Source: a virus. From it: a DNA stretch of 64,000 bases. The stretch spans positions 746 through 64,745 of IMG/VR virus record IMGVR_UViG_3300045988_162375. One strand, given 5' to 3'. Numbering within the stretch: position 1 is the stretch's first letter; the number at the start of each line of letters is the position of its first letter. Of the stretch, positions 21,641 to 41,654 are shown piece by piece. Below the pieces are notes generated by a model. It was not told where the DNA came from. It did not search any database and saw nothing but the letters and a program-made list of their open reading frames with translations. A program made the position numbers and the translations under genes.

Positions 21641-22089
21641 CAGCAGTTATTTGATTACGCAACTAAGACAATAACAGCTTATGCACGAATGCGTCGTGAC
21701 GATAGGCAGGTGATAGTGAGGAAGACTACCGTAGGAAATGACGGGGCAGACTGTAAAGTTCTATCCAGATACTTACCTCCAGCAGTGGCTAAAAGAGTAT
21801 CATTTTTATTGAAATATTTTAATATATGGAAATTGTAAATATTATAGCAGCTTGTATAGTTGCTTACTTTCTTCAACTTGGTATGGGTGCTGTATTGGGA
21901 ACTAATCAAAATAAGTGGCTAAAGATTGGATTTATTATTCCTGGTATTGGCCTCCTTGTACAGCTCGTATATTTATTTTATTGCATGTTCTATATAATGT
22001 TTGATGAGGAGTAAGGTAATAAGGTGACATACAGCAATCTTTTTAAATTATTGCATTTGGGTAAATATGAACGTCACCTACCATTGATA

Positions 22090-22982: not shown

Positions 22983-22998
22983 CATTATAAATTTATAT

Positions 22999-23820
22999 TG
23001 CGGGGTAGAGCAGAGGCCAGCTCGTCAGCCTCATAACGGACTTATGTCTAAGATGAAGCTTGTCTACTTATTTATACGAACCTTTGTAAAGTTCGAAATT
23101 TTTTGTATATTTGTAGTATAAATTAATAATTAATACTATGAATAAATACTCAAAACAAGAACTAGAAACGTATATTTTAAAGGATAAACTTTCATATACA
23201 GCAATTGGAGGTATTTATGGAGTAACTGGAGCAGCAATAAAGAAAGCTGCTTTAAGGTATGGAATTATATTACCTAAAAAGAGAACCATAAATGCGAAAG
23301 AGAACTTTAGTCACAAAGGGAAATCTAAAGTAGACTCTTTTTCAGATTCAGAATTTATAGAAATTATTTCTAGTAACATTGGTTGGAAAAATATTGGATT
23401 TGCGCTGGGATATACTAACCGCCCATCAAGTGATGTTGTTTCAAATATAAAAAGTAGATGCTCGAAGTTAGGTATTGAGCCTATTATTGAACAACCTTCT
23501 CCAATACTATTTAAAACTAAGGGAGAATTATTATCTTCTAGAAAAAATTACCAAAGTTATAGAAGTTCTATTAGAAAACATGCTGAGTTAACCTATTTTA
23601 GATCAACTAAGGTTAAAAAATGTGCAATATGTGGATATGATAAACATATAGAAATTGCACATATTAAATCAGTAGCAGAGTTTGATGATTCTGTAACAAT
23701 TGCTGAAATCAATTCCGTTGATAATCTCATAGCTTTATGCCCTAACCATCATTGAGAATACGATAATGGATTGATTACGATATAAGCTGAAGGTCGGGGG
23801 TTCGAATCCCTCTCCCGCTA
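22999..23820 (+). tRNA. Split initiator-like tRNA(CAT): 5' part 22999-23036, 3' part 23786-23820, interrupted by a ~750-nt insertion encoding an HNH endonuclease
   Basis: 5' part TGCGGGG-TA-GAGCAGAGGCCAGCTC-G-TCAGC-CTCATAA closely resembles bacterial tRNA-fMet including the 1:72 mismatch; 3' part GCTGA-AGGTC-GGGGG-TTCGAAT-CCCTC-TCCCGCT-A supplies the complementary anticodon-stem strand, T arm and acceptor strand. Confidence 0.5.
23138..23755 (+). CDS. HNH homing endonuclease (inside the split tRNA(CAT))
   Basis: 205 aa; C-terminal HNH motifs (CAICGYDKHIEIAHIKS...LIALCPNHH); paralogous to the two HNH ORFs at 28.7 and 29.7 kb; contains no TGA. Confidence 0.65.
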   Translation: MNKYSKQELETYILKDKLSYTAIGGIYGVTGAAIKKAALRYGIILPKKRTINAKENFSHKGKSKVDSFSDSEFIEIISSNIGWKNIGFALGYTNRPSSDVVSNIKSRCSKLGIEPIIEQPSPILFKTKGELLSSRKNYQSYRSSIRKHAELTYFRSTKVKKCAICGYDKHIEIAHIKSVAEFDDSVTIAEINSVDNLIALCPNHH

Positions 23821-23878
23821 GAGTATACAGATAGTATACCTCCACGTGGTTATACTCGGGTAACGCTAAATTACTATC

Positions 23879-24523
23879 ATGGTTTGCATATATCGTATAA
23901 TAAATAAAATAAATAATAAACAATATGTAGGTAAAACTACAGTAGGAATCTGAAGAAGATGAAAGACTCACATAAGGGATTGTGAGAAAAGGGAAGAAGA
24001 AAGTCGTCCGCTGTATAGAGCTTTTCACAAGTATGGAATTTCTAATTTTAGAATTGAAATTTTAGAAGAATGCACTTTAGAAAAGTTATCAGAAAGGGAA
24101 ATCTATTGGATAAGTAAGCTTAATACTTATAAATTTGGGTATAACGCTACCAAGGGTGGAGATGGTTCACAGCTGTACAATTATGAGGAAATAGTAGCTC
24201 TTTATAAAGAAGTAAAGTATGTATGTAAAGTTGCAGAAATTGTGCAATGTTCAACCGATACTGTTAGTAAATGCTTAAAACTTTATCAAATTCCAGTATA
24301 CCATCATTTATCAGGTAATGTTAATTCTCCAAGAAAGATTCAGCAGTACTCTTTAGAAGGTGATTGATTATGTGAATTTAATTCAGTGCAGGAAGCTGCG
24401 GAGTGATTATATAATAATGGAAAGGTTAAAACTTTGAGTTCTGGAGTCCGAGGTCATATATCGGATGCCGCTAGAGGTAAAATAAAATCCGCATATAAAT
24501 ACACATGAAAATATAAACAATAA
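23879..24523 (+). CDS. GIY-YIG homing endonuclease, 215 codons with 5 in-frame TGA
   Basis: N-terminus MVCIYRIINKINNKQYVGKTT (GIY-YIG), YWISKLNTYKFGYN; track shows no ORF here because the gene is broken by TGA codons. Confidence 0.55.
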
Positions 24524-24591
24524 GGTGTCAAACAGCAAACTTTTACAATCGAATGACTTTTAATCATTAAATGATGTAGGGATACCTTTCT

Positions 24592-24665
24592 GGAACATAT
24601 GGTGTAATTGGCTAACATATCGCCCTGTCACGGCGAAGTTCGGGGTTCGAATCCCCTATGTTCCG
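24592..24665 (+). tRNA. tRNA-Asp(GTC)
   Basis: Acceptor GGAACAT/ATGTTCC, anticodon arm TCGCC-CTGTCAC-GGCGA, T-loop TTCGAAT. Confidence 0.8.
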
Positions 24666-24679
24666 CAAAATTATGATTT

Positions 24680-25066
24680 ATGGATGTAAAATGGCTATCT
24701 GATAAGTCTTTTGTAGTTAGGGGTACTACATATACTGTACAAGCTCCTGTTACTTTAGAGGAAGCTTTGGAAGAGATGCAAACTGCACTTTCCGAGATAA
24801 AAAAGAAAAAGGAGTATTATAAAGGTTTATTGGAAAAACTAAATTTCTCTGATTCTTTTTTGAATAAAGCTCCTATCAAAGTAATAGTAGATAAAATTAA
24901 AATTGAGGAAGATACATATAAAATGTTATTCTTTCTTAATGAAGAAGAATATAAATATACCTTGCATTTAAAAATCATTTTAAGAGTACTTGATTTTGTT
25001 AACCTAGCATATCAGGAACTTGACTATAAAATGAAACATAAATTAATTCCTGAAGATTTAGACTAA
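24680..25066 (+). CDS. hypothetical protein
   Basis: 128-aa ORF between GIY-YIG gene and tRNA-Ser. Confidence 0.35.
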   Translation: MDVKWLSDKSFVVRGTTYTVQAPVTLEEALEEMQTALSEIKKKKEYYKGLLEKLNFSDSFLNKAPIKVIVDKIKIEEDTYKMLFFLNEEEYKYTLHLKIILRVLDFVNLAYQELDYKMKHKLIPEDLD

Positions 25067-25134
25067 ATGATAGGTGCTGATCCTTTATAAATGTGAAAGG
25101 CTCTCAAGATATATCTAAATAATAGGAATGATTC

Positions 25135-25223
25135 GGAGGGTTGTCAGAGTTGGTTTATTGTGTCACTCTTGAAAAGTGATGTACGTGATGAGCGTACCAG
25201 GGGTTCGAATCCCTTACCCTCCG
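25135..25223 (+). tRNA. tRNA-Ser(TGA), type II
   Basis: Acceptor GGAGGGT/ACCCTCC, anticodon arm TCACT-CTTGAAA-AGTGA, long variable arm, G73. Confidence 0.8.
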
Positions 25224-25294
25224 CGCGGTAGTAGTTCTTTGTGAAATTCTCTGCGGTATACAGTTAGTGGAAGCATAAAAGAATTTCACTTTAA

Positions 25295-25366
25295 GCACCT
25301 TTGGTGTAATTGGTAACACGATGGTCTCCAAAACCATAGTTTAGAGTTCAAGTCTTTAAGGGTGTG
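25295..25366 (+). tRNA. tRNA-Trp(CCA)
   Basis: Anticodon arm ATGGT-CTCCAAA-ACCAT, T arm TAGAG-TTCAAGT-CTTTA, acceptor GCACCTT/AGGGTGT with G1-U72. Confidence 0.7.
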
Positions 25367-25423
25367 CATAGTTTTATTATTATTTATTACAAAGTCTCTT
25401 CAGCAAAATTTATAGCATGGGGG

Positions 25424-25495
25424 CACTACGGTCACAGGTTCAATTCCTGTTTAATAGAAAAGTTCTATTAATAGCTCAGTTGGTAGAGCATAGTT
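25424..25495 (+). tRNA. Inverted-order tRNA halves (3' half 25424-25458 immediately upstream of a complementary 5' half 25465-25495): candidate permuted tRNA gene or remnant
   Basis: 3' half: CACTA-CGGTC-ACAGG-TTCAATT-CCTGT-TTAATAG-A; 5' half: CTATTAA-TA-GCTC-AGTTGGTA-GAGC-A-TAGTT; acceptor strands are perfectly complementary and anticodon-stem strands pair 4/5. Confidence 0.3.
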
Positions 25496-25516
25496 AAAAA
25501 TATAGAGACTTTATAT

Positions 25517-25607
25517 CTGGGTATGGAGGAGTCAGGTCAACCTCGCTGGTTTTGGGAACCAGAGCAAGCTGTAATGGCGGGCGCAAGTTCGAATCTTGCT
25601 ATCCAGA
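25517..25607 (+). tRNA. tRNA with anticodon TGG (Pro-like, G37) but an unusually long (~20 nt) variable region, 91 nt
   Basis: Acceptor CTGGGTA/TATCCAG, D arm GAGG-AGTCAGGTCAA-CCTC, anticodon arm CTGGT-TTTGGGA-ACCAG, T arm GCAAG-TTCGAAT-CTTGC. Confidence 0.4.
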
Positions 25608-25623
25608 CAATATTTAAAAATAT

Positions 25624-26199
25624 ATGAATAAGATAGATAAATATTTAAGAAGGTTTGCATACAAAATTGAAACCTCTGAGACAAAGGAATCTAGGTATTA
25701 TACTATTGGGGATTTAATCGTTAGAGTATCTAATCATATTGGGAAAAATTCTTCTGGGAATATATCAATAATTATTGACAGAAATAATTATATACTTTAT
25801 GTTCCATCAACTAATAAAGTAAGTCTTATTTCTTATGAGGAGTGTAAAACTTTAATCAGAGGTATTGTATTACATGCTTCTTTATTTTTGGTTGGAGATT
25901 CTACATATCAAAAAAGTCTTGTTAAGGAGAATGAAGAGTTAAAATTTCAGATTAGTAATTTAAAGCAGAAAATAAATATTCAGGAAAGACAATTAATTCC
26001 GAAGAAAAAACCAAATGATACGTCTATCAAAGTAATTCGAGCTATTTTAATAAATTTAGAAAAGTGCAAAAAGAAAAAAATTAAAGTTAAGTATGGCTCT
26101 TGTGAATTTCAAACGTTACCTGACAGTACGATTTATGAAATTTGGAAAGATCCAGAAATTCGAAAATATGTTAAAGAACTTAAAATTAATTTAATATGA
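25624..26199 (+). CDS. hypothetical protein
   Basis: 191-aa ORF. Confidence 0.35.
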   Translation: MNKIDKYLRRFAYKIETSETKESRYYTIGDLIVRVSNHIGKNSSGNISIIIDRNNYILYVPSTNKVSLISYEECKTLIRGIVLHASLFLVGDSTYQKSLVKENEELKFQISNLKQKINIQERQLIPKKKPNDTSIKVIRAILINLEKCKKKKIKVKYGSCEFQTLPDSTIYEIWKDPEIRKYVKELKINLI

Positions 26200-26981
26200 A
26201 ATTAAATGTATTGCTCGCAAAACTGGAGCAGGGTGCTTCCCAGTTTAAAGCTCTCCTTCGAGATTATACAACCTTCTTTAAGAAGGAGTCAGACAACTTT
26301 CGAGGTGTTAAAAATACCTACGAACCTCGTCCTGACACTGTAGATCTTCCCAGTGAACGTAAACTCATTGCGGTTGTAACAACTGTAGATGAGAAATTCG
26401 ACTATTTCACTAATATGGTAAAAAGCTATATCAGTGAGATGTTTAATTGTGAAGCAACTAATGCATCGGGAACTGCTCGTGCAGATCTGGTTGTGGATGG
26501 TAATGTAATTGCTAATCTGAGCAGTCTGGAGCTTCTTAAGCTCAAGTCATTTCTGGAAAATCCTCAGCTTCAGGAGATGTTCCAGAACATTCCCGTTCGT
26601 AAAGATTCTGAGATCTGGGAACCATGTACTGAAGAAATGTATGCAGGTCGAGCAATTATGCAGTCTCCCCTTCTGAAAGGTACTAAAAAGTCTATCACTA
26701 AGACTCAGTACATTTTGGAAGATCCGAATGTTCAGAAGCTCGGCAATGCAACTCACTATCAGCCCCAAATTGCAGTAAAAGATACTGTGATGGAACTTGG
26801 TGATTATACCATGCAGCGTTTCTCTGGTGAGTGGACCCCTCGTCAGCGAGCATTAGCTCTTCAGCGTAGAAGTACTCTTCTGTCAGCAACTATTGCTGCA
26901 CTGAAAGTAGCAAATGAGGTAGAAGCAGTAAAATCCAATCTGGATTCAGAATGGCTGCTGAACTATCTCCAAGGTAGGTAA
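26196..26981 (+). CDS. hypothetical protein
   Basis: 261-aa ORF, moderately higher GC, start overlaps upstream stop. Confidence 0.4.
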   Translation: MKLNVLLAKLEQGASQFKALLRDYTTFFKKESDNFRGVKNTYEPRPDTVDLPSERKLIAVVTTVDEKFDYFTNMVKSYISEMFNCEATNASGTARADLVVDGNVIANLSSLELLKLKSFLENPQLQEMFQNIPVRKDSEIWEPCTEEMYAGRAIMQSPLLKGTKKSITKTQYILEDPNVQKLGNATHYQPQIAVKDTVMELGDYTMQRFSGEWTPRQRALALQRRSTLLSATIAALKVANEVEAVKSNLDSEWLLNYLQGR

Positions 26982-27148
26982 TAAAACAAACAAAATATTT
27001 GACGATAGACTTAGCTTCAGACTTAGACTAAGTAGCAAAGAGCTGTAATATCCTAGATAAATTACAAGGAGCTACATAAGATTTAGTGTCGCGTCAAAAG
27101 CTTTAGTCTCAAAGTTAATAAGGATGTGCTAATTCACTAATAAAAAAA

Positions 27149-27232
27149 TCATAAGACTGGGGGTTCGAGTCCCCCATTCGCCGCTAATTAAATCACTATA
27201 TGGCGAATTGGAGAAATGGTTAACTCGTATGA
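27149..27232 (+). tRNA. Second inverted-order tRNA half pair (3' half 27149-27183, 18-nt spacer, 5' half 27202-27232)
   Basis: 3' half: TCATA-AGACT-GGGGG-TTCGAGT-CCCCC-ATTCGCC-G; 5' half: GGCGAAT-TG-GAG-AAATGGTTAA-CTC-G-TATGA; acceptor and anticodon-stem strands are perfectly complementary. Confidence 0.3.
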
Positions 27233-27342
27233 ATACAATAAGTTAAAGTGAATTAGATGCACATTATCGTACAATATTTAAAAATACTGTAATTCATCAA
27301 TGAAGGAGAAGTAAGCGGGCCATGCTTGCTTCTCCATTTTAT

Positions 27343-27422
27343 GGCCCTGTAAGCAAATTGGTAAAGCTGCTTATATATTCTAGGTTCATAAGTGTGTGGA
27401 GGTTCGAATCCTTCCATGGCCA
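27343..27422 (+). tRNA. tRNA-like gene with a 13-nt anticodon loop (anticodon undetermined)
   Basis: Acceptor GGCCCTG/CATGGCC, U8, D arm AGC-AAATTGGTAA-GCT, stem CTTAT/ATAAG enclosing ATATTCTAGGTTC, T arm GGAGG-TTCGAAT-CCTTC. Confidence 0.3.
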
Positions 27423-27522
27423 CATGGTTTTCGTAATTTGATTTGTTTTAGTGAAAGGTAACTTACAGCAAATTTAAGTATAATTCGTCTGTTAATTATT
27501 CATAGTTACCTAGTTTTAAGGA

Positions 27523-27609
27523 GCGGGTATGGCGCAATTGGTAGCGCAGAGCACTTTTAATGCTAAGGGAGCCGAAAGGCCGTTCAGGGTTCAAGTCCCT
27601 GTGCCCGCA
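27523..27609 (+). tRNA. Type-II-fold tRNA (19-nt variable arm, A73) with anticodon loop CTTTTAA (TTT, Lys-type)
   Basis: Acceptor GCGGGTA/TGCCCGC, D arm GCGC-AATTGGTA-GCGC, anticodon stem GAGCA/TGCTA (one mismatch), variable GGGAGCCGAAAGGCCGTT, T arm CAGGG-TTCAAGT-CCCTG. Confidence 0.45.
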
Positions 27610-27801
27610 CTATTTTTTGGATATATAAAATAAAGTTATTATCTTTGTAACACAAGGTTACTTCAGCAAGCTTCTTCTACTGAATTGTATTTTGTTGAAC
27701 AGCGATCTGGGTTCGAGTCCCAGTTATAGGAAACTTCAGGGCTGAGAAGTACTATAGTCGTCTAATGGTAGGATGTAAATTAGAGTAACCTAGCCCAATA
27801 T

Positions 27802-27885
27802 GTACAGATGGCCGAGTGGTCGATGGCACAAGACTGTTAATCTTGCAGATTTATCTCACCGTAGGTTCGATTCCTGCTCTGTACG
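27802..27885 (+). tRNA. Ser-like type-II tRNA (G73, 15-nt variable arm) with anticodon loop CTGTTAA (GTT, Asn-type; one change from Ser GCT)
   Basis: Acceptor GTACAGA/TCTGTAC, D arm GCC-GAGTGGTCGAT-GGC, anticodon arm CAAGA-CTGTTAA-TCTTG, variable CAGATTTATCTCACC, T arm GTAGG-TTCGATT-CCTGC. Confidence 0.5.
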
Positions 27886-27903
27886 CTTAAACTTTAATGA
27901 AAA

Positions 27904-28362
27904 ATGATAAAGATTTATCTTGCAGGTCCGTTTTTCAATGAAAAAGAACGGCATCTTGTAGAAACTGCAGCACTCATTCTGCGTAATCAAGGATATGAAG
28001 TTATAGTTCCTATGGAACACTTCATTGAAAATGGTGAAAAGTTAACTAATGAAGAGTGGGCACGTAAAGTATTTGAATATGATGTAGAGCAAATCAGAAA
28101 TGCAGATTGTATACTTGCAATTTATCATGGTCATTACTCTGATAGTGGTACTGCATGGGAAATAGGCTTTGCATTTGCACATGATACAACTTGTATTGTT
28201 GCTCATGTTGATCCAAGTATTACAGCAAGTATCATGCCTGTTACTGGATGCTACTACAATATTAAATTCTCAGATATTGGTAAGATAGATCTGAAGAATT
28301 TACTTGATAATGAAAGGCCTTCTTCCAGAGGATTGAATGCTTGGATAGTAGAGCAGAAGTAA
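27904..28362 (+). CDS. nucleoside 2-deoxyribosyltransferase-family protein
   Basis: N-terminal IYLAGPFF motif and GTAWEIGFA region typical of Nuc_deoxyrib_tr/DNPH1-like proteins. Confidence 0.5.
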   Translation: MIKIYLAGPFFNEKERHLVETAALILRNQGYEVIVPMEHFIENGEKLTNEEWARKVFEYDVEQIRNADCILAIYHGHYSDSGTAWEIGFAFAHDTTCIVAHVDPSITASIMPVTGCYYNIKFSDIGKIDLKNLLDNERPSSRGLNAWIVEQK

Positions 28363-28576
28363 CACAACTAGGATTTGTAGTGAAATGTAAAGCCGAGAGT
28401 GCGGTATGGACATTGCAGGCTCTGATATGAAGGCACTCTAATCTATCAGTATTAGTCCAGAGATCAGAAATGATTCAAAGCGAAAATTTCATAGTTGTGT
28501 TTTTACAAGGTCTCTTACAGCAACCTTTATTTAGCAATAGACTTTTAATCTACGGAGCTTTATAGAGACCTTTTAT

Positions 28577-28648
28577 GAGGTATTGGTGTTAGTGATAGCA
28601 TATGTGACTTCCAATCACAAGGGGAGAGTTTGAATCTCTTATACCTCT
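28577..28648 (+). tRNA. tRNA-Gly(TCC)
   Basis: Acceptor GAGGTAT/ATACCTC, anticodon arm TGTGA-CTTCCAA-TCACA, T-loop TTTGAAT. Confidence 0.75.
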
Positions 28649-28683
28649 CAATTGTAACTAATAATTATTAATAAACTAAATTA

Positions 28684-29418
28684 ATGAAACGTTTTAAAGA
28701 ACTTTCAGATGATATAATCAGAACTGTGTGAAATAACAGTAAAAGTTTGTTTGAAATTTGTAAAAAGTTAGAAATTCATGATAATATTTCTAATAGAAAT
28801 AAATTAAAAGAATGGGCAGTTAAAAATAAAGTGGAGATTCCTGTTACTAACATACTTACAAAAGATAGTTATGAAAAGAATCCTAAACTATGTAAACAAT
28901 GCGGAAGTGCAATTTCATGAAGTAAGAGAGCCAATGACTTTTGTTCCCATTCATGCAGTGCTACATATATAAATTTAAAAAGAGGCGCTAAGTCAAGTGG
29001 TAAGTATGTTCGTGGTGCTACTTCTATCTGTGTAAATTGTGGAAATGTAGTACCTGCAAGAAATCAATATTGTAATCACAAATGCCAAGCTGAATATGCC
29101 TACAAGGAATTTATCAAACGCTGAAAAGAAGGTAAAGAATTAGGAATGGCAGGTGAAGATGGATTATCTGCACATATTCGACGATATTTATTAGAGAAGG
29201 CTAATTATACCTGTGAAATTCCAGGATGTGGATGTAATTTCATTAATTCTTATACTAATTTATCCATTCTTCAGGTACATCATATTGATGGAGATGCAAC
29301 TAACAATAAAGAAGAAAATCTCCAGGTTTTGTGTCCAAATCATCATGCAATGACTGAACATTTTGGATCAAGGAATAAAAATAGTACTAGACGATATCGA
29401 TACTCTAAAAATAAATAG
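28684..29418 (+). CDS. HNH endonuclease, free-standing between tRNA genes, ~245 codons with 3 in-frame TGA
   Basis: Frame from MKRFKELSDDIIRTV-W-NNSK... runs through 3 TGA into track ORF 29146-29418 (HHIDGD...NLQVLCPNHH); N-terminus paralogous to the 23138 HNH. Confidence 0.55.
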
Positions 29419-29644: not shown

Positions 29645-29726
29645 GCCTCCTTGGCACAGCGGCGACTGCAACGGTTTTGTAATCCGTCTTCATTTGAACG
29701 CGTCGGTTCGAGTCCGACAGGAGGCT
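29645..29726 (+). tRNA. tRNA with 14-nt variable arm and anticodon region TTTTGTAAT (TGT by canonical numbering, ambiguous)
   Basis: Perfect acceptor GCCTCCT/AGGAGGC, T arm GTCGG-TTCGAGT-CCGAC, variable CTTCATTTGAACGC, anticodon stem ACGG(T)/(T)CCGT with a 31-39 mismatch. Confidence 0.4.
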
Positions 29727-29742
29727 CTAAAATACTATAATT

Positions 29743-32854: not shown

Positions 32855-32940
32855 CCCGACGCGGCTACGATGGTGGAGTGGCGCAGCACTGTAAATGCTG
32901 TACATCAGAAACTCATGAGGTTCGAATCCTCACGGCGGGA
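32855..32940 (+). tRNA. tRNA-Tyr(GTA), type II
   Basis: Anticodon arm CAGCA-CTGTAAA-TGCTG, 15-nt variable arm, T arm TGAGG-TTCGAAT-CCTCA, A73. Confidence 0.65.
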
Positions 32941-32956
32941 CTAATTTATATTGACA

Positions 32957-33426
32957 TGAAAATTGTAGATAATTTTATATTCTTCTGGGGAGGTTGGTTA
33001 AGTAACTTTCATCCTTGTAGAATAGTATTTGGCTCTAAAGTTTTTAAATCATCTGAACAGCTTTTTATGTATCTTAAAGCTTTGCATTTTGGTGATATAG
33101 AAACAGCAGAGAGGATTCTATTAGCAGAGACTCCAAAGGAAGCTAAAACCCTTGGTAGGGAGGTTAGAAACTTTGATGAAAAATCCTGGAATGAGGTTAA
33201 GATTCAGAAAATGTATCTTGCCTTGGAAGGTAAATTTAGCCAAAATAAAGATTTAATGGATAAACTTAAAGACCCAGCATTAAATGGGAAATTCTTTGTT
33301 GAAGCATCCCCCTTTGATAGAGTCTGGGGTATAGGCTATGATCAAGATCATGCACTTCAAAACCAATCAAATTGGGGAGAAAATCTACTTGGTAAGACTC
33401 TTACCTTTTACAGAGGATCTTTATAA
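32957..33426 (+). CDS. NADAR (YbiA-like) domain protein
   Basis: FFWGGWLSNFHPC...FKSSEQLFMYLKALHFGD...PKEAKTLGREV...ASPFDRVWGIGY match NADAR family conserved blocks; track start 32878 overlaps tRNA-Tyr, so start moved to ATG ~32957. Confidence 0.6.
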
Positions 33427-33483: not shown

Positions 33484-35175
33484 ATGTTTGAAGCAAAAAA
33501 GAAAACATTATTTGCTGTTGATAGCAGTAAATCGGCATCTAAATCAGCCTTTATTCAGGCAGGATTAAAAACTGCAGCAGAAACCACTACAGGTAACGGT
33601 GGTAAAGCCTATTCCAGTACAGGGGATCCCTTCGTTGACCAGTTTGGTAGTACATCTAAGTACAGAGAGATTCGCCCATTTGCAGAAATTGCAAAAGATT
33701 GTGAAATTCTCTGGGCAGAAAATAAAGAAGATACTGTTAAATTTATCTTTTTCTTGCGAATGATTTGTCGTAAGATTAATGATAAAGAGTATGGTACCAA
33801 AGAAGCACAGAAGGGTTCTGAACTTCGTCATGAAGGTATTATGCGTCTCATCTGGCTGCATATCAAAGATAAAGAAGTGTTCTGGAAGAATGCTTGGTTG
33901 ATTCCCTTAGTGGGTTCTTGGAAAGATCTCTTCGTTATGCTTCGTTATGACTTAGTTTATAACGGCTGGGAACACCGAGTTCTGGATTGGCGCCGTTTTG
34001 CAGATCTGATTACTGCTGGCCTTAGTTCTGATTCCCAAACGAATCTTCTTCGTAAGTATCTTCCTCAGATCAAGGCACATTCCAAGTGTACTACAGTAGA
34101 GGCACAAGCAAATTGTATGATTGCAAAATGGCTGTGTTCAGAACTTTACGGTGCGTCAGGAGCAAAGACAGATGCTGAAAAGTATCAGGTATATCGTTCT
34201 TATGCAAAGATGAAAGCCGCAGGGACAGCACATAGCTGGCAACAGCTTATTTCAAAGCAACGATATACAGAGATTGACTTTGATAAGATTCATGGTCGTG
34301 CCTTAAACCTTCTTGTACACTCCAAGTTCTTAGAGAATCATAATCTCAAAGAGAAGTATCAGGAATGGATAGGAGCTCCAGAGACAAAGAAGGTGAAGTA
34401 CACAGGTTTTGTACATGAGCTCTTTAAACCTATTTGTAACACTGCTCCTTATAATATAGAGCAGCATATCAAAGATACTATTAATAAGCAGTTTATGACT
34501 CTTGTTAATAAGTGTAAGGAAGAGGGCAATACTACAGATCTAATTGTAGTACGTGATACTTCTGGTTCAATGGGTGCAGAAGCAACTGGAACTTCCATGT
34601 CTTGTTACAATGTAGGTAAGGCAATTGCTCTGTATTTCTCTTACTTCTTGAGAGGAAGGTTTCAAAATGCATGGATTGAGTTCAACTCGAAAGCTATGAT
34701 GCATGAGTGGAAAGGAGAAACTCCTCTGGAAAAATGGTTTAATGACCATTCAGGGTACTATGGAAGTACAAACTTTGAGGGTGTTATTAACCTCTTTACT
34801 CAGTTGAAACTTGAAGGTGTTCCAGAAGAGGAATTTCCTAAAGGAATTCTTTGTATCAGTGATTGTGAGTTTGATGCTTCAAGTCTGAATAAGACTTCAG
34901 TTGAAAGAGTTCATGATACATTGACAGCTGCAGGATTTTCTAAAGAGTATGTTGATAATTTTGTCATTTGCCTTTGGAATTTGAGAAATGATTACTACGG
35001 ACATAATGTACAAAATCGTGTTCCATTCCAAACTTATGGTGACGTCAAGAATGTCTACTATATGTCTGGATATTCAGCACAGATTGTATCTTTCTTAAAT
35101 GGGAAGGTGCAGACTACACGGGATCTGTTTGATGAGGCTATGAATCAAGAGATTCTGTCTCTCATTAAGATGTAA
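33484..35175 (+). CDS. vWA-domain protein with N-terminal helical domain (Ro60/TROVE-like or DUF2828-like architecture)
   Basis: 563 aa; C-terminal MIDAS-type motif LIVVRDTSGSMGAEATG; large N-terminal alpha-rich domain. Confidence 0.45.
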   Translation: MFEAKKKTLFAVDSSKSASKSAFIQAGLKTAAETTTGNGGKAYSSTGDPFVDQFGSTSKYREIRPFAEIAKDCEILWAENKEDTVKFIFFLRMICRKINDKEYGTKEAQKGSELRHEGIMRLIWLHIKDKEVFWKNAWLIPLVGSWKDLFVMLRYDLVYNGWEHRVLDWRRFADLITAGLSSDSQTNLLRKYLPQIKAHSKCTTVEAQANCMIAKWLCSELYGASGAKTDAEKYQVYRSYAKMKAAGTAHSWQQLISKQRYTEIDFDKIHGRALNLLVHSKFLENHNLKEKYQEWIGAPETKKVKYTGFVHELFKPICNTAPYNIEQHIKDTINKQFMTLVNKCKEEGNTTDLIVVRDTSGSMGAEATGTSMSCYNVGKAIALYFSYFLRGRFQNAWIEFNSKAMMHEWKGETPLEKWFNDHSGYYGSTNFEGVINLFTQLKLEGVPEEEFPKGILCISDCEFDASSLNKTSVERVHDTLTAAGFSKEYVDNFVICLWNLRNDYYGHNVQNRVPFQTYGDVKNVYYMSGYSAQIVSFLNGKVQTTRDLFDEAMNQEILSLIKM

Positions 35176-35645: not shown

Positions 35646-36227
35646 ATGCGATTACTTGTAGTAGTTGATATGCAAGAAGACTTCATCAGAGGTGCATTAA
35701 CGGTTCCTGGTGCTGAAGAAATAATTTCTCCTATAGAGAAATTAGTTAAAGAGTATATAACAGCAGATGATGCTGTCCTTTTTACTCGGGATACTCATTA
35801 TGAGCATAGTGATACTAGGGGATTCAGCTATGCTATGACTCGTGAAGGTAGAAATCTTCCAATTCTTCATTGCGTTTGTGGAACTGAAGGTCATAAGCTT
35901 ATTAAGGAATTTAAGCCTTATCTTCGTTCCTGCTATGTAATGGATAAACTAAATAGGTTTGGATTTATCCAGGATGAGTTTAATGATGCCAAGATAGATG
36001 ATGGAGAATATTTATTCGACATCGCTGATTGCATTACAGAAATTACTTTGGTTGGTGTAGTAACTAATCTTTGTGTTATTTCATGTGCTGTAAGTTTTCA
36101 GCAAATATTCCCTGATGCAGATATCATCATAGATGCTTCCTGCTGTCGTTCCAATAACAATGAACTTCATAACAAAGCTTTAGATGTTATGGAGGGTTTA
36201 CAAATGACTATAATTAATCGTTATTAA
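35646..36227 (+). CDS. pncA: nicotinamidase / isochorismatase-family cysteine hydrolase (PncA-like)
   Basis: N-terminal LLVVVDMQEDF (catalytic Asp), TNLCVISC (catalytic Cys), 193 aa. Confidence 0.55.
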   Translation: MRLLVVVDMQEDFIRGALTVPGAEEIISPIEKLVKEYITADDAVLFTRDTHYEHSDTRGFSYAMTREGRNLPILHCVCGTEGHKLIKEFKPYLRSCYVMDKLNRFGFIQDEFNDAKIDDGEYLFDIADCITEITLVGVVTNLCVISCAVSFQQIFPDADIIIDASCCRSNNNELHNKALDVMEGLQMTIINRY

Positions 36228-36228
36228 T

Positions 36229-37713
36229 ATGTTTAAACCTTGTGGAGCTCTACTGACTGATTTTTATAAGCAGGATCACCAGCGTCAATATGACCCTAGC
36301 ATCACTAAGGTAGTTTCTTACTATGTACCTCGTAAAACTAGGATTCCTGAATTTGATAAGGTAGTAGTTTTTGGTATTCAAGCATTTATTGAGGAGTATC
36401 TGATTGAGTACATGAATGAAACTTTCTTTAACCGTCCCTTAGAAGAAGTTATTGCAGAATATGAATTTGTGATTTCTTCTACTATGGGAGCAGACCGTGT
36501 TAACTCGGATAAAATTAAAAACCTTCATGAATTAGGATATCTTCCTATCGAAATTTGGGCACTTCCTGAGGGATATAAAGTAGGAATGAATATCCCCTGT
36601 ATCGAGATTTCTAATACTAATCCAGAATTTGCATGGTGTACTAATTTCATTGAAACCTTGATGCTCTCTGAGCTTTGGTATCCAATGTGTGTTGCAACTG
36701 CTGTAACTAAATATCGTAGTATCGTAAATGATTTTTATTCTAAAACTTCTGATATTTCTGGTCGTTCTGCTATTTCTGAGTTCGGATTTAGAAGTTTAGT
36801 TGGACTTCATGGTGCTATTAAAGCTTCGTGTGGATTTTTGCTCTCTTTTAATAAGACTGCGACTATTCCTGGCATTATGTATGCTTCAAAGTATTATCAT
36901 ACCCCAATGTCTGTAGTAGGTGGAGGTATGGCTTCTACTGAGCACTCCGTAATGTGTAGTTCTGCTGCCATTGATGGGGATGAAAAAGTTATGATTCGAC
37001 GCCTCCTTACTGAGGTCTATCCTAATGGATCATTCTCTATGGTAAGTGATTCCTATGATTACTGGAATGTTGTCGATGAGATTCTCCCATCTCTTAAGGA
37101 AGAAATTCTCAGTAGAAATGGTACTTTGTATGTTCGTGGTGACTCTGGAGATCCTGTAGAAATTGTAACTGAGACGGTTTTTTCTCTTTGGGAGACTTTT
37201 GGAGGCACTGTCAACTCTAAGGGATATAAAGTCTTAGACCCTCATGTTCGAGCTTTATATGGTGATGGCATCACTCAGTTACGTGCAAAACAGATTTATC
37301 AGATTTTGTATGATAAAGGATTCTCTGCAGAGAATGTTGCACTTGGTGCAGGAGGATTTTCCATGCTTTCTTACATGGATGAGTTTGGGAATGTAGATAT
37401 GTTCTCTCGCGATACATTTAATGTAGCAATTAAATGCAGCTATGTAGAACAAACCATTGATGGAAAAACTAAATCTATCATGGTCTACAAAGATCCTAAA
37501 ACGGATTCAGGAATGAAGAAATCCCACAAAGGATGTTGTGCTGTTTTCTACAACCATGTAACTGGTGAGTTTGATTGTGATGAAGGTATGACACTGAAAG
37601 AAGCTCATAATGAGCCTTTCAATTTACTTCGTCCTATCTTTTCAGATGGAAAAATGAGAGAGCAAACTACTCTCACAGAAATTCGTAGAACTCTTTGGAA
37701 CGGGAAATTCTAA
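36229..37713 (+). CDS. NAMPT/NAPRT-family phosphoribosyltransferase (NadV or PncB, or Namat-like)
   Basis: 494 aa; N-terminal LLTDFYKQDHQRQYDP characteristic of the nicotinamide/nicotinate PRTase family. Confidence 0.55.
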   Translation: MFKPCGALLTDFYKQDHQRQYDPSITKVVSYYVPRKTRIPEFDKVVVFGIQAFIEEYLIEYMNETFFNRPLEEVIAEYEFVISSTMGADRVNSDKIKNLHELGYLPIEIWALPEGYKVGMNIPCIEISNTNPEFAWCTNFIETLMLSELWYPMCVATAVTKYRSIVNDFYSKTSDISGRSAISEFGFRSLVGLHGAIKASCGFLLSFNKTATIPGIMYASKYYHTPMSVVGGGMASTEHSVMCSSAAIDGDEKVMIRRLLTEVYPNGSFSMVSDSYDYWNVVDEILPSLKEEILSRNGTLYVRGDSGDPVEIVTETVFSLWETFGGTVNSKGYKVLDPHVRALYGDGITQLRAKQIYQILYDKGFSAENVALGAGGFSMLSYMDEFGNVDMFSRDTFNVAIKCSYVEQTIDGKTKSIMVYKDPKTDSGMKKSHKGCCAVFYNHVTGEFDCDEGMTLKEAHNEPFNLLRPIFSDGKMREQTTLTEIRRTLWNGKF

Positions 37714-38483
37714 TGAAAGAAGTATATGAAGGAATAGTTTCCTTTCTTAAGAATTATCAAGAACGTACCCATGTGAAAGGGTATGTTCTTGGTATTTCTG
37801 GAGGAAAGGATTCTACTGTAGTGGCCAAATTATTGGTAGATTCTATAGGTAAGGAAAATGTATTAGGTGTGCTAATGCCTAATGGTAAGCAAGCTGATAT
37901 TGAGGATAGTTATACAGTATGTGACTTTCTTGATATTAACTATACTGTTGTTAATATAGAAAATGCGTTTGATGAACTTATTCATCAAATTGATGTTTCG
38001 AAAATAACTACAGTGGAAGGGAATGAAGAAAACATTCCAGTAACGGAAAAGGCTCTTACTAATGTTCCTCCTCGTATTCGTATGACTATTCTATATACTA
38101 TAGCTCAGTCTGTAGGATATCGAGTAGCGGGGACTAGTAATGCTTCAGAATTATTTATTGGTTGGGGAACTAAATGGGGAGATTTGGCATCTGATATTAA
38201 TCCTATTTCTCAATTAACATGTTCTGAAGTTATTTCTTTAGGAGACTATATGGGACTCCCATATGATCTTATACATAAGACTCCTGCAGATGGATTAACA
38301 GGAAAGTCTGATGAAGAAAATTTTGGTTTTACATATAAAGAACTTGACACTCTTATTGTAAAGCAGCGAAATCTTACTTGCACAGGTAGAATACAATGTG
38401 CTTTTACTGAACAAGAATTAAAAATCTTAAAATTACATGAAGCTGCGTATCACAAAGATCATGTAATTAAAATACATTATTAA
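37695..38483 (+). CDS. nadE: NH3-dependent NAD+ synthetase (NadE-like PP-loop ATP pyrophosphatase)
   Basis: PP-loop YVLGISGGKDSTVVAKLL; 262 aa. Confidence 0.6.
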   Translation: MEREILMKEVYEGIVSFLKNYQERTHVKGYVLGISGGKDSTVVAKLLVDSIGKENVLGVLMPNGKQADIEDSYTVCDFLDINYTVVNIENAFDELIHQIDVSKITTVEGNEENIPVTEKALTNVPPRIRMTILYTIAQSVGYRVAGTSNASELFIGWGTKWGDLASDINPISQLTCSEVISLGDYMGLPYDLIHKTPADGLTGKSDEENFGFTYKELDTLIVKQRNLTCTGRIQCAFTEQELKILKLHEAAYHKDHVIKIHY

Positions 38484-38484
38484 T

Positions 38485-41281: not shown

Positions 41282-41624
41282 ATTTAATGAAATTCTGAGT
41301 GCTACTGGAACTGCGGTACTCAAGAAACGTGCTGAAATCATCAATGCTGATGCCCGCGAAGCAGCTAAGGATCAGGTTAATCTCATTGAGAAAGAGATTC
41401 GTCAGATTAAGTCCAAGATTATGAATCTGGAGGATCTGTCGATTAAATCGACCGAATCACTGGTTGTAGGTACGGATTTTAAGGCAGATGAGTGGGTAAC
41501 TCAGATGTTCAAGCTTCGTGATGACTTGCGCAACGCTGAAATCTGTCTGGAAATTGCTCAGAATATTTATAATGAGTATTTCACGGAACTTCCTGAAGTA
41601 GACTGTGATAAGAAAGCAGAATAG
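41274..41624 (+). CDS. hypothetical coiled-coil protein
   Basis: 116 aa. Confidence 0.3.
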   Translation: MNKFNEILSATGTAVLKKRAEIINADAREAAKDQVNLIEKEIRQIKSKIMNLEDLSIKSTESLVVGTDFKADEWVTQMFKLRDDLRNAEICLEIAQNIYNEYFTELPEVDCDKKAE

Positions 41625-41631
41625 CTTCATA

Positions 41632-41652
41632 GGCGGATTTACTCCGCCTTTT
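41632..41652 (+). terminator. Rho-independent terminator-like hairpin
   Basis: GGCGGA-TTTAC-TCCGCC followed by TTTTAA. Confidence 0.45.
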
Positions 41653-41654
41653 AA

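What the first reader, a model, noticed from the sequence alone, without database searches (positions are those of the whole stretch)
25409..27232. Two loci with a tRNA 3' half placed immediately upstream of its own complementary 5' half (permuted tRNA genes or deletion remnants)
Two loci show the same layout: 25424-25495 (7-nt spacer, forming a 9-bp hairpin across the junction) and 27149-27232 (18-nt spacer). In both, the acceptor-stem strands of the upstream 3' half and downstream 5' half are perfectly complementary, and the anticodon-stem strands also pair. Both breakpoints fall in the anticodon loop. This is the architecture of circularly permuted tRNA genes known from a red alga and a few archaea, and not described in phages. 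An alternative is recombination between tandem tRNA copies leaving 3'-half/5'-half remnants, but that requires two independent events with identical breakpoints. A third orphan 3' half lies at ~27690-27731.
Basis: seen in the sequence. Interest (0 to 1): 0.8.

Follow-up and report, generated by a model that had tools for sequence, protein, structure and literature searches.

The report
Phage tRNA-mimic Y-like small RNAs
The two "back-to-front tRNA genes" are real and under selection, but they are most likely tRNA-shaped small RNAs of the Y-RNA (YrlA) kind that partner a Ro60-like protein encoded 6-8 kb downstream, and they belong to a large family of phage small RNAs that I did not find described in Rfam 15 or in the paper library searched.

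Summary
At 25391-25512 (L1) and 27126-27262 (L2) a T-arm and a 3' acceptor strand lie upstream of a perfectly complementary 5' acceptor strand and a D-arm. The "orphan" at about 27700 (L3, 27655-27791) has the same layout.

The permuted-tRNA reading is not supported.
- No 7-nt anticodon loop can be rebuilt.
- The "anticodon stem" opens into a large asymmetric internal loop, which is closed by a terminal helix made of leader and trailer.
- In relatives the loop closing the acceptor stem is 2-73 nt long, often only 2-4 nt.

Deletion remnants are also excluded: all 7 acceptor pairs covary and are 100% paired.

The canonical GNCGAA motif is replaced by (U)ACAGCAA. That handle is shared with short stem RNAs that resemble Dictyostelium Class I RNAs. 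Verdict: a new variant of a known kind.

The parts
25391..25512 (+). L1, a tRNA-mimic Y-like RNA. Terminal helix 5' strand 25391-25399. UCAGCAA motif 25400-25406. G-run 25419-25423. AC-like stem strands 25425-25428 and 25491-25494. Variable loop 25429-25433. T-arm 25434-25450. Closed acceptor-like hairpin 25451-25471 (7 bp, extendable to 9). U8-A9 equivalents 25472-25473. D-arm 25474-25489. A-rich 3' internal loop 25495-25503. Terminal helix 3' strand 25504-25512.
   Evidence: Rfam YrlA hit over the full model, 31.8 bits. Covariation in 7 site variants: 94.6% of cells paired, acceptor helix 7/7 pairs with changes on both sides. Model R1 scores it 129.8 bits.
27126..27262 (+). L2, a tRNA-mimic RNA without the ACAGCAA motif. 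Terminal helix GTG+CTAATTCACT 27126-27138 pairs with AGTGAATTAG+(ATG bulge)+CAC 27247-27262. AC-like stem TCATA 27149-27153 / TATGA 27228-27232. T-arm 27159-27175. Acceptor-like strands 27176-27182 and 27202-27208, separated by 19 nt (27183-27201). D-arm with a 3-bp stem 27211-27226.
   Evidence: R1 36.1 bits, E 4e-6. Present in all 14 close relatives. Compensatory changes A-T to G-C (L010) and C-G to T-A (L008) in the acceptor-like stem; substitutions concentrate in the spacer.
27655..27791 (+). L3, a third and more degenerate member. Terminal helix AGGTTACT 27655-27662 / AGTAACCT 27784-27791. UCAGCAA 27663-27669. T-arm 27707-27723. Acceptor-like strands TTATAG 27724-27729 / CTATAG 27752-27757, enclosing a small hairpin. 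Weak D-arm about 27759-27775.
   Evidence: R1 30.2 bits, E 1e-4. One relative (L013) gains a C-G pair and carries a G-C to A-U swap in the acceptor-like stem. Copies with internal deletions occur in L007 and L008.
22022..22079 (+). E1, a short stem + ACAGCAA RNA (AGGTGAC...GTCACCT), 9 nt upstream of tRNA-Ile.
24522..24588 (+). E2, a short stem + ACAGCAA RNA. Its interior holds a 4-bp stem with loop CUUUUAA. It ends 3 nt before tRNA-Asp.
27456..27511 (+). E4, a short stem + UUACAGCAA RNA, 11 nt upstream of tRNA-Lys.
28507..28572 (+). E6, a short stem + UUACAGCAA RNA. Its interior holds a 4-bp stem with loop CUUUUAA. It ends 4 nt before tRNA-Gly(UCC) at 28577-28648.
   Evidence: R1 24.2 bits through the handle alone. 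The tRNA is; its anticodon was read.
33484..35175 (+). Ro60-like protein (563 aa): helical-repeat N-terminal part plus vWA domain. Pfam DUF7788, and DUF2828 just below cut-off. Proposed protein partner of the RNAs.
25295..25608 (+). Flanking tRNA-Trp (25295-25367) and tRNA-Pro (25517-25608), which bracket L1 at 23 nt and 4 nt. Their processing would release L1 from a polycistronic tRNA transcript (inferred).

Best explanation
L1, L2 and L3 are genes for small non-coding RNAs of the Y-RNA / YrlA kind, not tRNA genes.

Each RNA folds into a tRNA-shaped module: a T-arm, a 7-bp acceptor-like stem closed by a loop, a D-arm and a short anticodon-like stem. [quoted passage not shown]

Proposed mechanism, with shown and inferred steps marked:
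1. The RNAs are transcribed with the surrounding same-strand tRNA cluster. They are released when RNase P and the 3'-end enzymes process the neighbouring tRNAs. The position is shown; the processing is inferred.
2. The fold forms. This is shown by covariation.
3. The terminal helix plus the (U)ACAGCAA / A-rich internal loop is the handle bound by the phage's Ro60-like ring protein (ORF 33484-35175). This is inferred from gene linkage across distant phages and from the known Ro60-Y RNA mode of binding.
4. The tRNA-like module presents a tRNA shape to tRNA-binding factors, so the particle could tether, gate or decoy host RNA-processing, RNA-repair or tRNA-targeting enzymes during infection. This is inferred by analogy with Ro60-Y RNA-PNPase complexes and the phiLo phage Ro60.
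5. Copies with a 7-bp acceptor stem and a longer closing loop (L1, L2) may in addition be cut by RNase P and receive CCA, giving a two-piece RNA, as shown for Mycobacterium smegmatis YrlA. This is untested here.
For: Topology and sequence:
- The Rfam YrlA consensus has exactly this order: terminal stems, T-arm, closed hairpin, UA, D-arm.
- L1 matches it end to end at 31.8 bits, E 1.4e-5 locally.
- Four distant family members hit YrlA at 32-42 bits.
- L1 carries the YrlA-typical D-arm UAGCUCA..GGUAGAGC.

Selection on the fold:
- At the L1 site, seven variants in near-identical phages keep 94.6% of cells paired, with 14 of 29 pairs changed on both sides. The acceptor-like helix is 7/7 covarying and 100% paired. 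Slid controls give 32-52%.
- Across 31 distinct sequences of all three loci, 95.6% of cells are paired.
- L2 and L3 show compensatory swaps in close relatives.

Protein partner:
- ORF 33484-35175 has a Ro60 fold and lies on the same strand.
- It is related in sequence to mycobacteriophage 'Ro-like RNA binding proteins'.

Linkage:
- Model R1 hits 44 of 64 loci carrying homologues of this protein at 42-57% identity, plus two close relatives at 78-85% (L030, L049). All hits are on the gene's strand, 23 within 1 kb and 31 within 2.5 kb, typically 100-700 nt downstream.
- This includes locus L075, which has no tRNA gene.
- It also includes Mycobacterium phage Tourach: 42.8 bits, E 6.5e-8, 100 nt after gp54.

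Shared handle:
- (U)ACAGCAA next to the terminal helix is nearly invariant in 54 aligned members.
- Stem + CAGCAA elements number 464 on the gene strand against 89 on the other strand in 1.15 Mb.

Precedent:
- tRNA-like YrlA RNAs next to Ro60 genes in 254 bacteria and 22 phages. YrlA is modified by TruB and DusA. M. smegmatis YrlA, which has a 7-bp acceptor stem, is cut by RNase P and gets CCA (PMC4201824).
- Thermus phage phiLo Ro60 binds two phage Y-like RNAs and host PNPase (PMC12135203).
Against: - No element reaches Rfam's YrlA gathering score (31.8-42 bits against 69).
- The motif that defines the YrlA Ro-binding site (GNCGAAN0-1G / CGAA) is absent. L1 and L3 have UCAGCAA instead, and L2 has neither.
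- In this window the RNAs lie 5.7-8.1 kb upstream of the gene, outside the 4-kb criterion used for YrlA. Here they sit directly in front of tRNAs, so a role tied to tRNA transcript processing rather than to Ro60 is not excluded.
- RNA-protein binding, expression and RNA ends are all untested.
- Some relatives carry internally deleted copies of L1 and L3, so individual copies are dispensable.
Confidence: 0.78

Rival explanations
1. These are true circularly permuted (or split) tRNA genes. The transcript is cut in the leader and trailer, the ends are ligated (for example by RtcB or a phage RNA ligase) to form an anticodon loop, and the acceptor ends are opened by RNase P and RNase Z plus CCA addition. 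The product is a decoding tRNA.
For: - The layout is a circular permutation of the cloverleaf.
- The acceptor stems are 7 bp and followed by a discriminator-like base.
- Leader and trailer pair, as in permuted and split tRNA precursors.
- ARAGORN accepts the rejoined halves as 'tRNA with intron'.
- tRNA-Val is missing from the window's set.
- Relatives of the Ro60-like gene sit near RtcB in a Listeria phage.
Against: - No anticodon loop is conserved or reconstructable.
- ARAGORN's anticodons (GGG, AAA) depend on an arbitrary splice choice.
- L2 can only give AAA or ACA, and the A-run length varies between near-identical phages.
- There is no bulge-helix-bulge motif.
- The acceptor loop is only 2-4 nt in many members.
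- The conserved ACAGCAA and A-rich loop have no role in a tRNA.
- Linkage is to a Ro60-like gene, even in loci without any tRNA.
- No RNA ligase or splicing endonuclease was found among the 21 window proteins scanned.
Confidence: 0.03
2. These are decaying remnants of tandem tRNA genes (3' half of one copy plus 5' half of the next) left by deletions or recombination, with no function.
For: - The elements lie in a dense tRNA cluster that also holds an HNH endonuclease gene and a split tRNA-fMet.
- Some relatives carry internally deleted copies.
Against: - Both sides of all seven acceptor pairs change together and stay 100% paired.
- The same architecture recurs in phages whose Ro60-like proteins are only 42-57% identical, and in a mycobacteriophage, a Bacillus phage and a cyanophage.
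- The handle motif is conserved.
- Remnants would need two deletions per locus with matching breakpoints.
Confidence: 0.02
3. These are tRNA-like RNAs that work independently of the Ro60-like protein. Examples: processing punctuation or chaperone elements for the polycistronic tRNA transcript, or decoys that soak up host tRNA-cleaving defence nucleases or tRNA-modifying enzymes.
For: - In this window every member (L1, L3, E1, E2, E4, E6) ends 3-12 nt before a tRNA.
- E2 and E6 carry a tRNA-Lys(UUU)-like anticodon loop.
- The tRNA-like interior at the L1 site is swapped between near-identical phages, as might be expected in an arms race.
- L2 lacks the handle motif.
Against: - In distant phages the elements cluster next to the Ro60-like gene rather than next to tRNAs, including loci with no tRNA nearby.
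- The decoy idea is compatible with Ro60 binding rather than an alternative to it.
Confidence: 0.14
4. This is a two-piece (permuted) tmRNA-like gene.
For: Permuted tmRNA genes also place the T-arm and 3' acceptor strand upstream of the 5' acceptor strand. There is a weak Rfam tmRNA hit to the L2 T-arm (14.1 bits).
Against: - ARAGORN, which detects permuted tmRNA, reports none.
- The Rfam hit covers 17 nt of T-arm only.
- There is no tag reading frame or pseudoknots, and a D-arm is present.
Confidence: 0.01

Closest known systems
YrlA (Rfam RF02553), the tRNA-mimicking Y RNA-like RNAs of bacteria and phages that partner Ro60/Rsr (Chen et al. 2014, PMC4201824; structure preprint 10.1101/312249)
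   Same: - Same order of elements: terminal helix from the 5' and 3' ends, internal loops, short stem, T-arm, closed acceptor-like stem, UA, D-arm.
- Same near-invariant T-loop and D-arm sequences in L1.
- Encoded on the same strand as a Ro60-fold protein gene, and adjacent to it in most relatives.
- Several copies per genome.
- A 7-bp acceptor-like stem, as in M. smegmatis YrlA, which is cut by RNase P and receives CCA.
   Different: - Scores are below the family threshold.
- The GNCGAAN0-1G Ro-binding motif is replaced by (U)ACAGCAA, and is absent in L2.
- YrlA's second stem is missing.
- The partner protein belongs to the DUF2828/DUF7788 family, which Pfam did not match to its TROVE model.
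- In this phage the RNAs are scattered in the tRNA cluster 6-8 kb from the gene.
- The tRNA-like interior is swapped between near-identical phages.
Thermus phage phiLo Ro60 with Yrl1 and Yrl2 (PMC12135203)
   Different: phiLo Yrls were picked by a CGAA motif and a stem-bulge-stem shape, and the text I read does not describe them as tRNA-like. Protein sequence similarity is not detectable by HMMER.
Circularly permuted tRNA genes (Cyanidioschyzon merolae, some green algae, Thermofilum pendens). From my own knowledge; not checked in the library.
   Same: The 3' half lies upstream of the 5' half, the acceptor strands are joined by an intervening sequence, and leader and trailer pair.
   Different: Those genes rebuild a normal anticodon loop (or other loop) through a bulge-helix-bulge site cut by the archaeal/eukaryal splicing endonuclease, and give decoding tRNAs. 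Here there is no such site, no anticodon loop, and a conserved non-tRNA handle.
Dictyostelium Class I RNAs (Rfam RF01414; Kjellin et al. 2021, PMC7919456)
   Same: The handle of L1, L3 and E1-E6, and above all the short elements next to the Ro60-like gene in other phages, share these features with Class I RNAs:
- AAG start.
- A 6-9 bp terminal stem whose sequence varies but whose pairing is kept.
- (C)UUACAGCAA(U/A)U directly after the 5' strand.
- A variable interior and an A-rich stretch.
- A CUG(U/A) end.

Rfam hits reach 39.3, 37.3, 30.7 and 26.2 bits, against a gathering score of 41.5.
   Different: - All hits are below threshold, and the window's own elements are not detected at all.
- Class I RNAs are eukaryotic, 42-65 nt, have no tRNA-like insert, and are reported as unique to dictyostelids with Rnp1A as the known binder.
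- Homology versus convergence is untested.
Two-piece (permuted) tmRNA genes of alpha-proteobacteria and cyanobacteria. From my own knowledge.
   Same: A permuted tRNA-like domain whose acceptor ends are separated by an excised spacer.
   Different: There is no mRNA-like tag region or pseudoknots, a D-arm is present, and ARAGORN does not detect it.

Membership tests
YrlA / bacterial-phage Y RNA | tRNA-like module in the order T-arm, closed acceptor-like stem, D-arm, inside a stem formed by the RNA's 5' and 3' ends | tested here: met
   L1, L2 and L3. Supported by covariation. The Rfam YrlA consensus structure has the same order.
YrlA / bacterial-phage Y RNA | Score at or above the Rfam gathering threshold (69 bits) | tested here: not met
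   L1 scores 31.8 bits. L2 and L3 are not reported at E<=10. Distant members score 32-42 bits.
YrlA / bacterial-phage Y RNA | GNCGAAN0-1G (CGAA) motif near the 5' end, the proposed Ro60 contact | tested here: not met
   No CGAA in the 5' parts of L1, L2 or L3. L1 and L3 and 54 aligned relatives have (U)ACAGCAA at that place. L2 has neither.
YrlA / bacterial-phage Y RNA | Encoded within about 4 kb of a Ro60 orthologue, on the same strand | tested here: inconclusive
   In the window the strand is the same but the distance is 5.7-8.1 kb. In distant relatives 31 of 44 loci with a hit have one within 2.5 kb, and all are on the same strand. In Mycobacterium phage Tourach the hit lies 100 nt downstream.
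YrlA / bacterial-phage Y RNA | Bound by Ro60/Rsr; carries tRNA modifications; in some species cut by RNase P and given CCA | not testable with these tools
   Needs RIP/EMSA, modification mapping and end mapping.
Ro60 / TROVE protein (for ORF 33484-35175) | Ring of helical repeats followed by a vWA domain | tested here: met
Ro60 / TROVE protein (for ORF 33484-35175) | Sequence match to the Pfam TROVE domain or to solved Ro60 proteins | tested here: not met
   Pfam finds only DUF7788 and DUF2828. There are no PDB sequence hits. Foldseek sees only vWA.
Circularly permuted tRNA gene | 3' half upstream of 5' half, with complementary acceptor strands | tested here: met
Circularly permuted tRNA gene | Joining the transcript ends rebuilds a canonical loop (7-nt anticodon loop with U33, purine 37 and a sensible anticodon) that is conserved in relatives | tested here: not met
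   Internal loops are 16-33 nt and 2-15 nt with no conserved anticodon frame. The only options for L2 are AAA or ACA, next to a length-variable A-run.
Circularly permuted tRNA gene | Bulge-helix-bulge site at the leader-trailer junction, and a splicing endonuclease plus ligase to use it | tested here: not met
   The leader-trailer helix is separated from the AC-like stem by large asymmetric loops. No endonuclease or ligase was found among the 21 window proteins scanned. The rest of the genome was not examined.
Circularly permuted tRNA gene | An intervening sequence between the acceptor ends that must be removed by RNase P and RNase Z | tested here: inconclusive
   L1 has 7 nt and L2 has 19 nt, so cleavage is possible. 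But 12 of 54 relatives have loops of 4 nt or fewer.
Dictyostelium Class I RNA (RF01414) | Short terminal stem plus the conserved 11-nt motif (CCUUACAGCAA in the Rfam consensus) next to its 5' strand, length 42-65 nt | tested here: inconclusive
   The motif and stem are present in E4 and E6 (UUACAGCAA), and as UCAGCAA in L1 and L3. Phage elements next to the Ro60-like gene score 19-39 bits against a gathering score of 41.5. The window's own elements are not reported.
Permuted (two-piece) tmRNA | tRNA-like domain plus a tag-encoding mRNA-like domain with pseudoknots | tested here: not met
   ARAGORN finds no tmRNA. The Rfam tmRNA hit is limited to the T-arm.

The most novel reading that the evidence does not exclude
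L1 and L3 are the tRNA-cargo members of a large modular family of phage small RNAs that I did not find described. The common handle is a terminal stem, (C)UUACAGCAA and an A-rich loop. It would be the recognition site of the DUF2828/DUF7788 branch of Ro60-like proteins. The variable interior (a tRNA mimic, an anticodon-loop mimic, or others) would be an exchangeable cargo.

The family is present but not annotated in the GenBank records I examined for one cultured phage from each of four groups: Listeria phage LMTA-94 (a P100-type Pecentumvirus), Bacillus phage Tsamsa, Mycobacterium phage Tourach (genus Faithunavirus) and Leptolyngbya phage Lbo-JY46.

The same handle defines Dictyostelium Class I RNAs. 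If this reading is right, those RNAs, thought to be unique to social amoebae, would be Y-RNA counterparts of a Ro60-like protein.
Probability: 0.3. Interest if true: 0.85.

Novelty: new variant of a known kind. Interest (0 to 1): 0.55.

Why it matters
- It removes a tempting but wrong claim (permuted tRNA genes in a phage) and replaces it with a testable one. A divergent branch of the Ro60-Y RNA system, with its own RNA handle, appears to be common in large tRNA-rich phages. Rfam's curated thresholds and the GenBank records I examined do not report it.
- The tRNA-shaped cargo is swapped between near-identical phages, which points to a role in the conflict over tRNAs and RNA repair during infection.
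- Four cultured phages I examined carry the same elements, so RNA-protein binding, RNase P cleavage and knock-outs can be tried directly. They infect Listeria, Bacillus, Mycobacterium and Leptolyngbya.
- The resemblance of the handle to Dictyostelium Class I RNAs, if it reflects common function, would give those RNAs a candidate protein partner and a mechanism.

Tried and rejected
- Megablast of 25200-27900 against GenBank phages: no match.
- Rejoining the halves and running ARAGORN with introns: it calls tRNA-Pro(GGG) for L1 and tRNA-Phe(AAA) for L2. The splice points are arbitrary, so this is not evidence of an anticodon.
- Looking for distant 5' partners of the 3' halves (split tRNA with a long insert): none found for L1-L3 other than the adjacent ones. 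The same approach did find a real split tRNA-fMet elsewhere.
- AFDB50 fold search, to look for a Dictyostelium homologue: library not available.
- Supplement of Chen et al. 2014, to see which phages they listed: not held.
- Avesson et al. 2011, for the Class I RNA binding proteins: not held.
- Literature searches for DUF2828, for 'Ro-like' phage RNAs, and for Dictyostelium with Ro60/TROVE/Y RNA: nothing relevant.
- A sigma-70 promoter scan of 24500-28800 found no more sites than in shuffles, so it gives no information on transcription units.
- My first idea that the CAGCAA region is a promoter or a ribozyme. I dropped the promoter idea because a complementary 3' strand covaries with the upstream strand. 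I found no Rfam ribozyme match there, but a new ribozyme class is not formally excluded.


Full report
**1. What is in the sequence**

The window is AT-rich and phage-like. ARAGORN tRNAs, all on the + strand. Rfam adds two more tRNAs and a Pistol ribozyme.

- L1: T-arm 25434-25450. TTAATAG plus A, six more bases, then CTATTAA at 25465, followed by TA and a canonical D-arm.
- L2: T-arm 27159-27175. ATTCGCC plus G, 18 bases, then GGCGAAT at 27202. The 'anticodon stem' strands TCATA and TATGA flank the whole module.

- In both loci the sequence upstream of the '3' half' pairs with the sequence downstream of the '5' half'. This is 9 bp in L1 and 10+3 bp in L2.
- The 'orphan' at about 27700 is a third complete copy, L3 at 27655-27791. 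It has its own terminal helix, a 6-7 bp acceptor-like hairpin carrying an extra stem-loop, and a weak D-arm.

**2. Remnant, permuted tRNA, or something else**

Fourteen closely related IMG/VR phage contigs were found through the DUF7873 protein that lies between L1 and L2. All carry the three elements.

At the L1 site the terminal helix and the adjacent UCAGCAA are identical in all of them. The interior comes in at least six versions with different acceptor-like stems: TTAATAG/CTATTAA, CTGGGTA/TACTCAG, TTATTAG/CTAATAA, CCAATAG/CTATTGG, CCAACTG/CAGTTGG and CTAACTG/CAGTTAG. The closing loops are 4-16 nt.

Counts on the alignment of seven variants:
- 94.6% of cells are paired, against 32-52% when the partners are slid.
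- 14 of 29 pairs have changes on both sides.
- The acceptor-like helix has 7 of 7 such pairs and is 100% paired.

L2 shows A-T to G-C and C-G to T-A swaps in its acceptor-like stem among 91-99% identical relatives, and its spacer is the most variable part. L3 gains a C-G pair and has a G-C to A-U swap in one relative. Selection therefore acts on the fold, which rules out inert deletion remnants.

The same data argue against a decoding tRNA. When the halves are rejoined, ARAGORN accepts a cloverleaf 'with intron', but the anticodon depends on an arbitrary cut. In 54 aligned family members:
- The segment between terminal helix and AC-like stem is 16-33 nt on the 5' side and 2-15 nt on the 3' side, with no conserved anticodon frame.
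- The conserved residues there are (U)ACAGCAA and an A-rich run.
- The loop closing the acceptor stem ranges from 2 to 73 nt and is 4 nt or fewer in 12 members. In those there is nothing to excise.

In L2 the only 7-nt joins give AAA or ACA, next to an A-run whose length differs between near-identical phages.

**3. What it resembles**

An Rfam search at E-value threshold gave a full-length match of L1 (25405-25515) to YrlA (RF02553): 31.8 bits against a gathering score of 69, E 4.6e-4 in 5.3 kb and 1.4e-5 locally.

The YrlA consensus structure is terminal stems, a short stem, T-arm, closed hairpin, UA, D-arm. That is exactly the '3' half then 5' half' layout, and it has the same D-arm sequence.

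Chen et al. 2014 (PMC4201824) describe YrlA as follows:
- It is the tRNA-mimicking Y RNA of bacteria and 22 phages.
- It is encoded near, and on the same strand as, the Ro60 orthologue.
- It carries a GNCGAAN0-1G motif.
- It is modified by TruB and DusA.
- In M. smegmatis, where the acceptor stem has 7 bp, it is cut by RNase P and given CCA.

They also warn that tandem tRNAs can mimic YrlA. Here the T-arms and D-arms belong to no called tRNA. With my model, tandem tRNAs score at most about 22 bits.

**4. The protein partner**

ORF 33484-35175 (+ strand) matches phrog_850 'RNA-binding protein', Pfam DUF7788, and DUF2828 just below cut-off. Sequence searches of the PDB find nothing, and Foldseek finds only vWA domains.

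tblastn links the ORF to proteins annotated 'Ro-like RNA binding protein' in mycobacteriophages such as Tourach, Rumpelstiltskin and Faith1. It also links it to 'DUF2828' proteins of Listeria, Enterococcus, Staphylococcus and Bacillus phages and of jumbo enterobacterial phages.

**5. Linkage across distant phages**

A covariance model (R1) built from the seven L1-site variants finds L2 (36.1 bits) and L3 (30.2 bits) as the next best hits in the window.

I then searched 64 IMG/VR loci holding homologues of the Ro60-like protein. Most are 42-57% identical; two close relatives, L030 and L049, are 78-85%. Results:
- R1 hits 44 loci at E of 2e-5 or better.
- Every hit is on the gene's strand.
- The nearest hit is within 1 kb in 23 loci and within 2.5 kb in 31, usually 100-700 nt downstream of the stop codon.

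The set includes L075, which has no tRNA gene in ±10 kb. In Mycobacterium phage Tourach, R1 hits 100 nt downstream of gp54 (42.8 bits, E 6.5e-8) in a stretch not annotated in the record. Four distant members again hit Rfam YrlA below threshold at 32-42 bits, and none reaches the gathering score.

In the window itself the gene is followed by a terminator-like hairpin and no elements. In this lineage the RNAs sit in the tRNA cluster 5.7-8.1 kb upstream.

**6. The handle**

The canonical CGAA motif is absent. Instead, (U)ACAGCAA directly follows the 5' strand of the terminal helix in L1, L3 and nearly all 54 aligned relatives. L2 lacks it.

The same handle closes four short elements in the window, each ending 3-12 nt before a tRNA:
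- E1 22022-22079
- E2 24522-24588
- E4 27456-27511
- E6 28507-28572

Next to the Ro60-like gene of other phages such elements form tandem arrays, one unit of which carries the tRNA-like insert:
- Five units in Leptolyngbya phage Lbo-JY46.
- Four in L075.
- Three in Tourach.
- Others upstream of the gene in Bacillus phage Tsamsa and Listeria phage LMTA-94.

Over the 64 loci there are 464 stem + CAGCAA elements on the gene strand against 89 on the other strand.

These short units hit Rfam's Dictyostelium Class I RNA model at 39.3, 37.3, 30.7 and 26.2 bits, against a gathering score of 41.5. The model's consensus is a 6-bp stem, CUUACAGCAAUUAAA, an A-rich run, the 3' stem, then UG. Class I RNAs are reported to be unique to dictyostelids, with only one direct binder known (PMC7919456). 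I could not test whether this is homology.

**7. Most likely mechanism**

Shown:
- The fold.
- Its conservation.
- Its linkage to a Ro60-fold gene.
- Its position between tRNAs.

Inferred:
- The RNAs are released from the tRNA transcript by tRNA-processing enzymes.
- The terminal helix plus the ACAGCAA/A-rich loop binds the Ro60-like ring.
- The tRNA-shaped module engages tRNA-binding factors, so the particle tethers, gates or decoys host RNA enzymes. This is by analogy with Ro60-Y RNA-PNPase and the phiLo system (PMC12135203) and with the general link of TROVE proteins to RNA repair in jumbo phages (PMC7824862).
- L1 and L2, with 7-bp stems and 7- and 19-nt loops, may also be opened by RNase P and given CCA.

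The swapping of the tRNA-like interior between near-identical phages, and the decayed copies in some relatives, remain unexplained.

**8. Verdict**

- The permuted-tRNA interpretation is not supported, and the remnant alternative is refuted.
- The elements work like YrlA-type Y RNAs, but they fail two membership criteria: the Rfam threshold and the CGAA motif. Their partner is a Ro60 fold that sequence methods do not call TROVE.
- I therefore rate them a new variant of a known kind.
- The handle family and its likeness to Class I RNAs are the most novel open lead.

Noticed in passing
window 22022-22079, 24522-24588, 27456-27511, 28507-28572; also L095:6862-7213, L075:11680-12080, L096:5460-5720, L097:3430-3880, L098:3740-3910: Short RNAs of about 55-70 nt made of a terminal stem, (C)UUACAGCAA, a variable interior and an A-rich run. 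In the window each ends 3-12 nt before a tRNA. In other phages they form tandem arrays beside the Ro60-like gene. They hit Rfam's Dictyostelium Class I RNA model just below threshold (up to 39.3 bits against 41.5).
   Followed up: partly
window 24556-24570 (E2) and 28539-28553 (E6): Both short elements contain a 4-bp stem with the loop CUUUUAA, identical to the anticodon loop of the phage's own tRNA-Lys(UUU) at 27523-27610. This may be an anticodon-arm mimic.
   Followed up: no
window 22998-23821: A tRNA-fMet-like gene (anticodon CAT) is split in the anticodon loop by 749 nt that contain an HNH endonuclease ORF (23138-23755). ARAGORN calls it only with the intron option. No Rfam group I intron match was found.
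   Followed up: partly
window 23821-23876: A weak full-length match to the F. prausnitzii HDV-like ribozyme model (20.3 bits against 44) starts exactly at the 3' end of the split tRNA-fMet. This is the arrangement I recall, from my own knowledge, for 'theta' ribozymes that process phage tRNA 3' ends.
   Followed up: partly
window 8220-8290: Pistol self-cleaving ribozyme, 73 bits, well above Rfam's threshold.
   Followed up: no
window 25517-25608, 27523-27610, 27802-27886, 29645-29727, 43175-43260: Several tRNAs with anticodons for Pro, Lys, Asn, Thr and Arg are 83-92 nt long, with long variable arms (or small inserts). This is unusual for these isoacceptors.
   Followed up: no
window 27343-27422: Rfam calls a tRNA here (44.2 bits) and ARAGORN does not. 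It has a 13-nt loop where the anticodon loop should be and one acceptor mismatch. A terminator-like hairpin precedes it at 27305-27335.
   Followed up: no
window 9236-9309 and 47280-47364: Two more tRNA-like stretches not called by either tool. The first is a full cloverleaf with a TTGGAGT T-loop. The second is a T-arm plus 3' acceptor strand (47340-47364) with no 5' partner found nearby.
   Followed up: partly
window 25232-25280: A 10-bp hairpin GTGAAATTCT...AGAATTTCAC with a 29-nt loop lies between tRNA-Ser and tRNA-Trp. It has no CAGCAA motif.
   Followed up: no
window 32878-33426 and 35646-42986: A NADAR-domain protein lies directly upstream of the Ro60-like gene. Downstream is a block of NAD and purine metabolism genes: nicotinamidase-like, NAMPT, NAD synthase, adenylosuccinate synthetase-like and IMPDH/GMP reductase-like. 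In Listeria phage LMTA-94 the DUF2828 gene lies near RtcB and a DUF1768 protein. From my own knowledge, not tested here, DUF1768 is the earlier name of the NADAR domain.
   Followed up: no
L001-L014 at the site matching window 25391-25512: The tRNA-like interior of L1 differs strongly between phages whose flanking genes are 92-100% identical, while the terminal helix is unchanged. Two relatives (L007, L008) carry internal deletions. This suggests cassette exchange or fast diversification.
   Followed up: partly
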